Below, in pieces: positions 40,924 to 43,516 of a stretch of 64,000 nucleotides of DNA (positions within the stretch are counted from its first letter, which is position 1; each line of letters opens with the position of its first letter). A program made the translations under genes and the position numbers. The notes below the pieces were generated by a model. It ran no database searches and was not told the origin of the DNA. It saw only the letters and a list, made by a program, of their open reading frames with translations. This DNA comes from Escherichia coli (lineage in GTDB: Bacteria > Pseudomonadota > Gammaproteobacteria > Enterobacterales > Enterobacteriaceae), in assembly GCF_003018255.1 (NCBI RefSeq), contig NZ_CP027440.1. One strand, given 5' to 3'.

Positions 40924-41805
40924 ATGAGCAAAAAGCAGAGTTCCACCCCACACGATGCGCTGTTCAAACTCTTTTTACGCCAACCGGAGACGGCACGCGA
41001 TTTTCTTGCGTTTCATTTACCGGCACCCATTCACGCGCTCTGTGATATGAAAACCCTCAAGCTGGAGTCGAGCAGCTTTATTGATGACGATCTGCGTGAA
41101 AGCTATTCCGACGTGCTGTGGTCGGTGAAAACGGAACAAGGACCAGGATACATCTATTGTCTGATTGAACATCAAAGCACCTCAAACAAACTGATCGCAT
41201 TTCGCATGATGCGTTACGCTATTGCCGCAATGCAAAATCACCTTGATGCCGGATACAAAACGTTGCCGATGGTGGTGCCATTGTTGTTTTACCACGGTAT
41301 TGAAAGCCCCTATCCCTATTCGCTGTGTTGGCTGGATTGTTTCGCCGATCCCAACCTGGCAAGGCAGCTCTATGCCTCTGCATTTCCGCTGATTGATGTC
41401 ACCGTCATGCCTGATGATGAAATCATGCAGCACCGACGTATGGCGCTGCTGGAGTTAATTCAAAAACATATTCGTCAACGCGATCTAATGGGGCTGGTAG
41501 AGCAAATGGCCTGCTTATTAAGTAGTGGATACGCTAATGACAGACAAATCAAAGGGCTGTTTAATTACATCTTGCAAACCGGCGATGCGGTACGTTTTAA
41601 CGATTTTATCGACGGCGTTGCCGAACATTCACCGAAACACAAGGAGAGCTTAATGACTATTGCGGAAAGATTGCGGCAAGAGGGGTTTCAGAAAGGTATA
41701 CGAGCTATCGCCAAAACCATGCTGGATGCCGGAGTCCCTCTTGAGGACGTTCTGCGATTTACCAGCCTGACGGTTGAAGACCTTGCTGAAATAAATCATC
41801 AATAA
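40924..41805 (+). CDS. rpnA: Recombination-promoting nuclease RpnA / YhgA (transposase_31, PD-(D/E)XK-like)
   Basis: 293 aa; N-terminus [17 protein letters not shown]; position between feoC and bioH. Confidence 0.85.
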
Positions 41806-41822
41806 CGTAAAGGATGGTTTTA

Positions 41823-41996
41823 ATGACAGATGCAGAAAGAGAATATCTTATTAGTTACCTGATTGGTTATTTATTGGGTCGACGCCTGGAAGCCCTGGAT
41901 ATCGCCAAAAGAATGCTGTAATCCGGAGTCCCTCTTGCAGACATCATGCGCTTTACCGGGGTGTCAGAAGAAGAGTTGGCTGCGGCGAGCCAGTAA
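41823..41996 (+). pseudogene. Degenerate duplicate of an rpn-family 3' end (interrupted by in-frame stop and frameshift)
   Basis: Translation IAKRML*/SGVPLADIMRFTGVSEEELAAASQ parallels the RpnA C-terminus [35 protein letters not shown] similarity visible by eye. Confidence 0.45.
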
Positions 41997-42024
41997 AGTT
42001 CTGTCTCGCCATTTCAAAAGCCAC

Positions 42025-43516
<1,492 letters not shown>

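What the first reader, a model, noticed from the sequence alone, without database searches (positions are those of the whole stretch)
41823..41996. Decayed duplicate of the rpnA 3' end between rpnA and bioH
Directly after rpnA/yhgA, a 174-bp stretch repeats the last part of the gene at DNA level (atcgccaaaaGAatgctg...ggagtccctcttg...) but carries an in-frame TAA and a frameshift. Translation gives IAKRML* then SGVPLADIMRFTGVSEEELAAASQ, against [32 protein letters not shown] for RpnA. It looks like a footprint of recombination between Rpn paralogues, or a remnant of a separately encoded C-terminal small Rpn domain. My recollection is that such C-terminal domains have been reported to be expressed independently and to modulate the full-length protein; I cannot verify that here.
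Basis: partly seen in the sequence, partly recalled or inferred. Interest (0 to 1): 0.55.

Follow-up and report, generated by a model that had tools for sequence, protein, structure and literature searches.

The report
Truncated spare RpnA antitoxin gene
The stretch after rpnA is a second, free-standing copy of the gene's small C-terminal "antitoxin" module; it is an intact 57-codon gene in related Escherichia lineages but is cut short by a stop codon in this strain, so it is a lineage-specific broken copy of a gene type described in 2023.

Summary
The repeat is real: a local DNA alignment of the intergenic region against rpnA scores z = 19 against shuffles. The window is E. coli O127:H6 E2348/69, not K-12. 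Positions 41823-41996 form one colinear 57-codon reading frame with its own Shine-Dalgarno sequence and ATG. These copy the internal start site of rpnA's small protein RpnA_S. A single in-frame TAA (41919-41921) interrupts the frame; there is no frameshift. Intact 57-aa versions (Pfam HTH_Rpn_C) sit at the same feoC-rpnA-[gene]-bioH position in E. ruysiae and other Escherichia lineages, with CAA, GAA or TAT where the window has TAA. Of 5,426 complete E. coli genomes, 853 carry this two-copy form; every copy checked keeps the TAA. Most others, including K-12-like strains, have one fused gene whose 3' end is orthologous to the window's "decayed copy". That allele equals a two-copy locus minus one 206-nt deletion. 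The fragment is therefore a nonsense-truncated "rpnA_Ss", the same kind as ypaA (rpnE_Ss) and rpnC_Ss of Zhong et al. 2023. The truncated product would keep only helix 1. Whether that peptide does anything is untested. Low-to-moderate interest.

The parts
40924..41805 (+). rpnA, full-length nuclease/toxin RpnA_L, 293 aa, intact
   Evidence: ORF list. NCBIfam RpnA equivalog NF007361 scores 674 bits against a cut-off of 583. RefSeq annotation of E2348/69.
41641..41805 (+). Internal rpnA_S cassette: RBS AAGGAG at 41641-41646, internal start ATG at 41653 (codon M244), 50-aa RpnA_S. This is the upstream copy of the repeat.
   Evidence: Sequence. Positions correspond to the K240/E241/M244 RBS and internal start site shown experimentally for K-12 rpnA in PMC10400941.
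41806..41822 (+). 17-nt spacer with a retained Shine-Dalgarno sequence (AAGGA, 41810-41814), 8 nt before the ATG at 41823
   Evidence: Sequence. Aligns to the RBS of the internal cassette: AAGGAGAGCTTAATGAC versus AAGGATGGTTTTAATGAC. ypaA in K-12 has the same layout.
41823..41921 (+). Truncated rpnA_Ss reading frame: 32 codons ([32 protein letters not shown]) plus a premature TAA at 41919-41921. It corresponds to helix 1 only.
   Evidence: Translation. Intact homologues have CAA, GAA or TAT at this codon. The AlphaFold2 model of the read-through has helices at 3-17, 21-33, 38-45 and 49-55.
41847..41882 (+). Three tandem 12-nt (four-amino-acid) repeats, CTTATTAGTTAC / CTGATTGGTTAT / TTATTGGGTCGA, encoding LISY-LIGY-LLGR
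   Evidence: One variant has an extra repeat (P0022). E. albertii has 2-4 repeats (P0012 and P0014). Dodecamer repeat variation of RpnS is described in PMC10400941.
41922..41996 (+). The part of rpnA_Ss after the premature TAA, presumably not translated: 24 codons (SGVPLADIMRFTGVSEEELAAASQ) plus the original stop at 41994-41996. It would encode helices 2-3. It is orthologous to the last 24 codons of K-12 rpnA.
   Evidence: Read-through residues 19-57 match 7TH0 RpnA_S residues 11-49 with E = 1e-13. One strain has a second stop here (L112).
42025..42795 (-). bioH, convergent neighbour that bounds the locus; not part of the system

Best explanation
The fragment is a nonsense-inactivated rpnA_Ss, a second free-standing copy of the RpnS antitoxin cassette lying 17 nt downstream of rpnA.

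Shown:
- The copy covers the whole cassette: Shine-Dalgarno sequence, ATG, helix 1 with dodecamer repeats, and helices 2-3.
- It is an intact 57-codon gene in E. ruysiae and several other Escherichia lineages at the same locus.
- In the E. coli lineage that includes E2348/69, one substitution changed codon 33 from a sense codon (CAA, GAA or TAT in the intact relatives) to TAA. Every two-copy E. coli genome examined carries this TAA.
- Most other E. coli carry a single fused gene, which equals a two-copy locus minus one 206-nt deletion.

Inferred:
- The intact protein is made from its own RBS, probably on the rpnA/rpnA_S transcript. I infer it folds as the RpnS helical bundle and pairs through helix 1 with RpnA proteins.
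- In this strain translation would stop after helix 1. The remaining 32-aa peptide lacks the helix-turn-helix part and most likely has no antitoxin function.
- The working antitoxin here is then the internal RpnA_S (41653-41805).
- The two diverged copies act as substrates for unequal recombination, which produces fused or mosaic rpnA tails.
For: - Repeat significance.
- Single colinear frame with one TAA.
- Intact 57-aa homologues P0001-P0010, 88-96% identical, Pfam PF27070 HTH_Rpn_C.
- Their synteny feoC-rpnA-[57 aa]-bioH in E. ruysiae, cryptic 'E. coli' and metagenomic contigs.
- CAA, GAA or TAT at the stop position.
- Read-through matches the crystallised RpnA_S 7TH0 (E = 1e-13; top Foldseek hit, probability 1.0).
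- AlphaFold2 helices at 3-17, 21-33, 38-45 and 49-55, pLDDT 87. The TAA falls at the end of helix 1.
- 853 of 5,426 complete genomes have the two-copy form. 827 have the exact 30-mer around the TAA and the other 26 have one mismatch. Two of those 26 were read and both keep the TAA.
- No genome has a CAA or TAT version.
- One genome has a second stop after the TAA (L112), as expected for untranslated sequence.
- PGAP annotates the piece as a pseudogene with an internal stop in some genomes.
- Same layout as rpnE-ypaA.
- The K-12 allele equals L101 minus 206 nt, with 3 mismatches in 210 nt.
- Mosaic alleles: O145 (L008; 44 genomes) and P0016.
- Published framework, PMC10400941.
Against: - No expression data exist for this strain.
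- The RBS, ATG and 32-codon frame are undamaged in all 14 two-copy E. coli genomes read. All 60 sampled hits had the same 191-nt length. A functional short peptide is therefore not excluded.
- Substitution counts among TAA alleles are too few to show relaxed constraint: 2 non-synonymous and 2 synonymous before the TAA, 3 and 3 after it.
- Rare metagenomic alleles with TAT at the stop codon (P0003, P0004, L100) could be revertants. That would hint the full-length protein still has value.
- No experiment has shown any rpnSs product to be an antitoxin. Zhong et al. showed only that YpaA is synthesised.
- The Pfam-A scan available here gave no hit for the read-through. The PF27070 assignment comes from precomputed annotation of the homologues.
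Confidence: 0.75

Rival explanations
1. The truncated 32-aa reading frame (41823-41921) is a functional micro-protein. As a helix-1-only peptide it would insert into the RpnA_L/RpnA_S helix-1 dimer interface and tune release of the toxin.
For: - The RBS, ATG and frame are intact in every two-copy E. coli genome read.
- There was no length change in 60 sampled genomes.
- Helix 1 is the dimerisation surface and sets the specificity in RpnS (PMC10400941).
- The TAA allele has persisted in 16% of complete genomes, including strains UTI89, ATCC 11775 and 042.
Against: - The post-TAA part is equally free of indels, so intactness before the TAA may only reflect a young lineage.
- The 2:2 versus 3:3 substitution counts show no difference.
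- Its helix 1 (EYLISYLIGYLLGRRLE) differs in length and composition from the resident RpnA helix 1 ([13 protein letters not shown]). Zhong et al. found that a single repeat difference abolishes cross-inhibition.
- A lone 32-aa helix lacks the bundle that would stabilise it.
Confidence: 0.12
2. The K-12-type single gene is ancestral. The window's arrangement then arose by insertion or tandem duplication of a roughly 200-nt cassette, so the fragment is the displaced original 3' end of rpnA rather than a former independent gene.
For: - The fragment from 41890 onward is about 94% identical to the K-12-type rpnA 3' end.
- E. whittamii has the K-12-type fusion.
- 3,552 of 5,426 genomes have the K-12 junction.
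- A single 206-nt event relates the two states and works in either direction.
Against: - The two-copy state occurs in E. ruysiae with the locus about 96% identical and the flanks about 91-93% identical. That fits old vertical descent.
- E. albertii retains the YLI-repeat segment that is specific to the downstream copy.
- The two copies are only 75% identical, far more diverged than the orthologues between species.
- The downstream copy has a complete RBS, ATG and helix 1, and is an open 57-codon gene in several lineages.
Confidence: 0.2
3. The fragment is a footprint of recombination with another Rpn paralogue (rpnB-E or a plasmid rpn).
For: Rpn C-terminal tails share a common motif (IAxxMLxxG...). 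The upstream and downstream copies are only 75% identical, which could suggest a foreign origin for one of them.
Against: - The best protein match is RpnA (82% to the K-12 tail). RpnB-like scores 43%, RpnE 33% and RpnC 24%.
- The word-based protein search returned only RpnA-locus proteins.
- Megablast of the spacer matched the genomes at a median of one place each (5,386 places in 5,384 genomes), the listed matches all lying at the rpnA-bioH locus.
- A distant-mode search with 41686-41899 matched only chromosomes, all listed matches lying in rpnA.
Confidence: 0.03

Closest known systems
ypaA (rpnE_Ss) downstream of rpnE in E. coli K-12, and rpnC_Ss in some strains (Zhong et al. 2023, PNAS, PMC10400941)
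   Same: - A second copy of the small C-terminal Rpn domain lies on the same strand just after the cognate rpn gene's stop codon (directly after it at rpnE, 17 nt after it at rpnA).
- It starts with a copy of the internal RBS and ATG (AAGGAGAGATTAATGAC for ypaA, AAGGATGGTTTTAATGAC here).
- It is closest in sequence to the cognate rpn gene's own tail.
- It varies by dodecamer repeats.
- It can be lost by deletion or fused to the N-terminal domain.
   Different: - It sits at rpnA, which the main text of that paper does not list as having an Ss copy.
- It is interrupted by a TAA at codon 33 in this strain, whereas ypaA is intact and its protein has been detected.
- Its helix 1 is unusually hydrophobic (YLIS/YLIG/YLLG), whereas Zhong et al. 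describe repeats of one hydrophobic residue plus three charged or glycine residues.
RpnA_S, the internal antitoxin of K-12 rpnA (PDB 7TH0)
   Same: Residues 19-57 of the read-through align to residues 11-49 of 7TH0 at 82% identity. It is the top structural match. The post-TAA part is orthologous to the K-12 sequence.
   Different: RpnA_S is translated from inside rpnA. This copy is free-standing, has a helix 1 that is 8 residues longer and different in sequence, and is truncated here.
Displaced or orphan C-terminal cassettes downstream of polymorphic toxin genes such as rhs and cdiA (analogy from general knowledge, not tested)
   Same: A diverged spare copy of the variable 3' module lies directly downstream of the main gene. 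Recombination between the copies yields new chimeric tails; mosaic alleles are seen.
   Different: The proteins are unrelated. Here the variable module is the antitoxin and oligomerisation domain, not a toxin tip. No associated immunity gene is present.

Membership tests
RpnS / HTH_Rpn_C domain (PF27070; small C-terminal domain of Rpn nucleases) | Significant sequence similarity to a characterised RpnS | tested here: met
   phmmer against the PDB: 7TH0 RpnA_S, E = 1.1e-13. NCBIfam RpnA equivalog, C-terminal positions 254-292, E = 2.9e-12. BLASTP against the K-12 RpnA tail: 82% over 39 aa.
RpnS / HTH_Rpn_C domain (PF27070; small C-terminal domain of Rpn nucleases) | Profile match to the Pfam family | tested here: inconclusive
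   The intact 57-aa homologues carry a precomputed PF27070 hit. The Pfam-A scan of the read-through run here returned no significant family.
RpnS / HTH_Rpn_C domain (PF27070; small C-terminal domain of Rpn nucleases) | Complete helical bundle: a long helix 1 plus helices 2-3 | tested here: not met
   The read-through model has all the helices. The window's reading frame stops at codon 33, at the end of helix 1, so the encoded product lacks helices 2-3.
rpnSs (second, free-standing rpnS gene downstream of an rpn gene; Zhong et al. 2023) | Lies directly downstream of the cognate rpn gene on the same strand | tested here: met
   The gap after the rpnA stop codon is 17 nt. The position is the same in E. 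ruysiae and other lineages.
rpnSs (second, free-standing rpnS gene downstream of an rpn gene; Zhong et al. 2023) | Own RBS and start codon homologous to the internal start site | tested here: met
   AAGGA at 41810-41814 and ATG at 41823 align with AAGGAG and ATG(M244) of rpnA.
rpnSs (second, free-standing rpnS gene downstream of an rpn gene; Zhong et al. 2023) | Clusters with the tail of its own upstream rpn gene rather than with other paralogues | tested here: met
   RpnA 82% (K-12 tail) and 59% (E2348/69 tail), against 43% for RpnB-like, 33% for RpnE and 24% for RpnC.
rpnSs (second, free-standing rpnS gene downstream of an rpn gene; Zhong et al. 2023) | Open reading frame encoding the whole small protein | tested here: not met
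   There is an in-frame TAA at 41919-41921. The feature is met in orthologues P0001-P0010. The window copy is therefore a pseudogene or truncated allele of the family.
rpnSs (second, free-standing rpnS gene downstream of an rpn gene; Zhong et al. 2023) | The protein is synthesised | not testable with these tools
   This needs ribosome profiling or epitope tagging in E2348/69.
Rpn toxin-antitoxin pair (RpnL inhibited by RpnS) | The small protein blocks the nuclease, SOS induction or toxicity of the cognate RpnL | not testable with these tools
   The literature shows this only for RpnA_S, RpnB_S, RpnC_S and RpnP2_S. It has not been shown for any Ss copy.

The most novel reading that the evidence does not exclude
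The rpnA locus may be a two-cassette diversity system. The downstream copy, even when truncated, would be kept as a recombination partner. Unequal exchange at different points of the two diverged cassettes would generate new RpnA tails, and therefore new toxin-antitoxin pairing specificities. The K-12 fusion, the O145 mosaic and the P0016 mosaic would be examples. In addition or instead, the helix-1-only peptide would modulate RpnA oligomerisation.
Probability: 0.15. Interest if true: 0.55.

Novelty: new member of a known kind. Interest (0 to 1): 0.3.

Why it matters
The Rpn nucleases are a recently recognised antiphage toxin-antitoxin family whose antitoxin is encoded inside the toxin gene. 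How their hypervariable tails diversify is an open question raised by Zhong et al. This locus adds three things:

- It gives rpnA, the structurally and biochemically best-studied member, a downstream spare copy like those of rpnE and rpnC.
- It shows that the crystallised K-12 RpnA_S tail is one deletion away from a two-copy ancestor-like allele.
- It supplies natural mosaic alleles with which to test how helix-1 length and sequence set toxin-antitoxin specificity.

For genome annotation, it explains why PGAP sometimes calls a "transposase" pseudogene between rpnA and bioH. For the window itself, the element is probably an inert remnant.

Tried and rejected
- **Non-coding RNA:** Rfam (E up to 1) found nothing in 41400-42200. 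The RNA fold of 41780-42030 is no more stable than shuffles, z = -0.63.
- **Promoters and terminators:** there is no sigma-70-like promoter and no convincing terminator between rpnA and the copy. One weak minus-strand hairpin is within chance expectation. I therefore assume co-transcription with rpnA.
- **Pfam-A scan of the read-through:** no significant hit. I relied instead on the PDB and NCBIfam matches and on the precomputed PF27070 annotation.
- **Genome-contig scan with RpnA:** this returned mostly distant paralogues from Photorhabdus, Xenorhabdus and similar genera. Only two Escherichia loci came back: E. whittamii, interrupted by an insertion, and an RpnB-like gene next to hisP. It gave little outgroup information. 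The protein-word search plus contig look-ups were far more useful.
- **Sense-codon alleles in complete E. coli genomes:** k-mer queries for CAA and TAT versions gave no match.
- **Pre-TAA versus post-TAA substitution counts as a test of constraint:** too few events, 4 against 6.
- **Minus-strand ORFs in the fragment:** two ORFs of 26 aa and 23 aa are listed; I did not search them for homologues and pursued them no further.
- **Inverted repeat 41790-41810 / 41855-41875** (81% complementary): judged a chance match.
- **Supplementary files of Zhong et al.:** not held. I could not check whether an rpnA_Ss is already listed there.

Full report
**1. What is in the sequence**

rpnA occupies 40924-41805 (+, 293 aa) and bioH 42025-42795 (-). 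The 219-bp spacer between them repeats the 3' part of rpnA.
- 41900-41982 matches 41706-41788 at 75% over 83 nt without gaps.
- 41820-41840 matches 41650-41670 at 81%.
- A local alignment of the spacer against rpnA scores 61. One thousand dinucleotide-preserving shuffles give 19.2 +/- 2.2, with a maximum of 30, so z = 19.
- The encoded peptides match with BLASTP E = 8e-11.

The repeat is therefore real.

Translating 41814-41996 gives a single frame: [59 protein letters not shown]. There is one in-frame TAA (41919-41921) and no frameshift. The copy is out of frame only relative to rpnA, because the spacer is 17 nt.

The repeat unit includes the translation signals. The rpnA internal cassette reads AAGGAGAGCTTAATGAC (RBS 41641-41646, ATG 41653, codon M244). 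The downstream copy reads AAGGATGGTTTTAATGAC (AAGGA 41810-41814, ATG 41823).

The downstream copy is 24 nt longer than the upstream one. The extra length lies in a zone of three tandem dodecamers (41847-41882) that encode LISY-LIGY-LLGR.

**2. Identity of the window and the comparison with K-12**

The spacer is 100% identical to E. coli O127:H6 E2348/69. RefSeq annotates nothing between rpnA and bioH in that genome.

In a K-12-like genome (L002), rpnA is 292 aa and only 28 bp separate it from bioH. Its tail (ALHIAKIMLESGVPLADIMRFTGLSEEELAAASQ) aligns at about 94% nucleotide identity with the window's "decayed copy" from 41890 onward, not with the window's own rpnA tail. The window has about 200 extra nucleotides after CAAGAGGGG (ending at 41685).

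The fragment is orthologous to the end of the K-12 gene.

**3. Published framework**

Zhong et al. 2023 (PMC10400941) made several relevant findings:
- All five K-12 rpn genes have an internal promoter and start site that produce a small C-terminal protein, RpnS.
- For rpnA the RBS lies at K240/E241 and the start codon is M244.
- RpnS blocks the toxic full-length nuclease.
- RpnA_S is a dimeric three-helix bundle whose long first helix carries four-amino-acid (dodecamer) repeats. These repeats set the pairing specificity.
- Some rpn genes have a second copy downstream, called rpnSs. ypaA after rpnE is one, and its protein was detected. rpnC_Ss occurs in some strains.

The main text does not name an rpnA_Ss. 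The supplementary files are not held.

**4. Intact relatives**

A word-based protein search with the read-through peptide found ten clusters of free-standing 57-aa proteins, P0001-P0010. They are 88-96% identical to the query and carry Pfam PF27070 HTH_Rpn_C.

Contig look-ups place them at feoB-feoC-rpnA-[57 aa]-bioH-gntX in three groups of genomes:
- E. ruysiae (L090-L092);
- assemblies labelled E. coli whose flanks diverge by about 8-9% (L093-L098);
- metagenomic E. coli-like contigs (L099-L101).

The loci align without indels. At the window's TAA they carry CAA (Gln), GAA (Glu) or TAT (Tyr).

E. albertii has a heavily deleted rpnA remnant fused in frame to the YLI-repeat zone of this downstream copy, with variable repeat number (P0012 and P0014). 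E. whittamii has the K-12-type fusion, with an insertion in the gene body.

Between the window and E. ruysiae the flanks are 91-93% identical, and rpnA and the Ss copy are about 96% identical. That fits an old two-copy locus rather than a recent transfer.

**5. Structure**

The read-through matches PDB 7TH0 (RpnA_S) over residues 19-57 with E = 1.1e-13. It also matches the C-terminal end of the NCBIfam RpnA model.

An AlphaFold2 model built from the alignment (pLDDT 87) has helices at 3-17, 21-33, 38-45 and 49-55. Its best PDB match by Foldseek is 7TH0, probability 1.0.

Codon 33, the TAA, lies at the end of helix 1. The window's product would therefore be a 32-aa helix lacking the two helices that complete the bundle.

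**6. Population picture**

Counts among 5,426 complete E. coli genomes:

| Allele state | Genomes |
|---|---|
| Any match to the spacer | 5,384 |
| Two-copy form | 853 |
| K-12-type junction (exact k-mer) | 3,552 |
| O145-type mosaic junction | 44 |

- The two-copy genomes include strains ATCC 11775, UM146, UTI89 and 042.
- All 853 match the 30-mer around the TAA with at most one mismatch; 827 match it exactly.
- Two of the 26 inexact genomes were read. One has a synonymous CTG to CTT change. The other has an additional TGA two codons after the TAA. Both keep the TAA.
- Queries for CAA or TAT versions found nothing.
- All 60 sampled hits span exactly 191 nt.
- Some RefSeq genomes annotate the piece as a pseudogene: "transposase; internal stop; missing N-terminus".
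- Among the TAA haplotypes read, substitutions are 2 non-synonymous and 2 synonymous before the stop, and 3 and 3 after it. This is too few to judge constraint.

**7. Relation between alleles**

- The K-12-like allele equals the two-copy locus L101 minus a single 206-nt deletion, with 3 mismatches in 210 aligned nucleotides. The junction lies in a short G run. Because 206 = 2 mod 3, the deletion exactly compensates for the frame offset between rpnA and the Ss copy.
- The O145:H28 allele (L008) carries the upstream-type sequence up to RFT and the downstream-type tail GLSEEELAAASQ. That is the product expected from recombination within the 83-nt repeat.
- P0016 is another mosaic, with its crossover near IAK.

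These alleles show that the two cassettes recombine to give new RpnA tails. The direction of the K-12 event (deletion versus insertion) is not proven. The genus distribution in section 4 makes deletion from a two-copy ancestor the more likely direction, at roughly two to one.

**8. Paralogue test**

The read-through is 82% identical to the K-12 RpnA tail, 59% to the E2348/69 RpnA tail, 43% to an RpnB-like tail, 33% to RpnE and 24% to RpnC. The rpnE-ypaA junction in a K-12-like genome has the same layout: a stop codon followed by AAGGAGAGATTAATGAC. Recombination with another paralogue is not needed to explain the fragment.

**9. Other checks**

There is no Rfam family, no unusual RNA stability, and no promoter or terminator signal in or around the fragment. 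Two short minus-strand ORFs (26 and 23 aa) lie in the fragment; I did not follow them up.

**10. Verdict**

The fragment is a nonsense-truncated rpnA_Ss, a member of the rpnSs class already described for rpnE and rpnC. In this strain it is most probably non-functional, and the internal RpnA_S serves as the antitoxin.

The points of interest are modest:
- rpnA also has, or had, a spare cassette.
- The K-12 RpnA tail is a fusion allele of that cassette.
- Natural mosaics exist.

A functional helix-1 peptide or a cassette-reservoir role cannot be excluded and would need experiments.

Noticed in passing
L008 1389-2020 (E. coli O145:H28 RM12581, between rpnA and bioH): A MazE-like antitoxin (89 aa; weak, below-cut-off NCBIfam MazE/AbrB hits) and a gene RefSeq annotates as a PemK/MazF family toxin are inserted between rpnA and bioH. 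This is exactly where the window has the Ss copy. The same strain carries the mosaic rpnA tail.
   Followed up: partly
L012 2260-3390 (E. whittamii): rpnA is interrupted after about codon 215 by an insertion carrying a 376-aa ORF. From memory it looks like an IS200/IS605-family TnpB/OrfB. The rpnA 3' end resumes after the insertion with the K-12-type tail.
   Followed up: no
L102 1501-1737 (E. albertii); P0012 versus P0014: rpnA is reduced to codons 42-69 fused in frame to the YLI-repeat zone of the Ss copy. The nuclease core is lost but the chimeric frame stays open. The number of YLISYLLDR-type repeats differs between isolates.
   Followed up: partly
L006 and L007 933-1307 (E. coli KUEC74 and p4A): The N-terminal two thirds of rpnA are deleted. 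Only the 3' 375 bp remain, including the RpnA_S cassette, and PGAP annotates this as a pseudogene. This may be an antitoxin-only remnant.
   Followed up: no
window 41690-41710 versus L003-L005 and L009-L011: E2348/69 rpnA (293 aa) lacks one 12-nt unit (TNAL in FQKGIRTNALNIAK) that is present in most two-copy strains (297 aa). This is the four-amino-acid repeat variation in helix 1 described by Zhong et al.
   Followed up: partly
L092 1089-1983 (E. ruysiae, SRR11484490): rpnA is called as two ORFs (200 and 109 aa), so it is apparently disrupted, while the downstream 57-aa Ss gene is intact.
   Followed up: no
P0022 (36 aa, Logan assembly) and L100/P0003/P0004 (metagenomes): One truncated allele carries an extra YLIS repeat. 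Rare alleles have TAT (Tyr) at the stop position on a TAA-lineage-like background, which may represent reversion.
   Followed up: partly
window 41790-41810 / 41855-41875: A 21-nt inverted repeat, 81% complementary, spans the rpnA stop codon and the start of the Ss repeats. The regional RNA fold is not unusually stable, so this is probably chance.
   Followed up: partly
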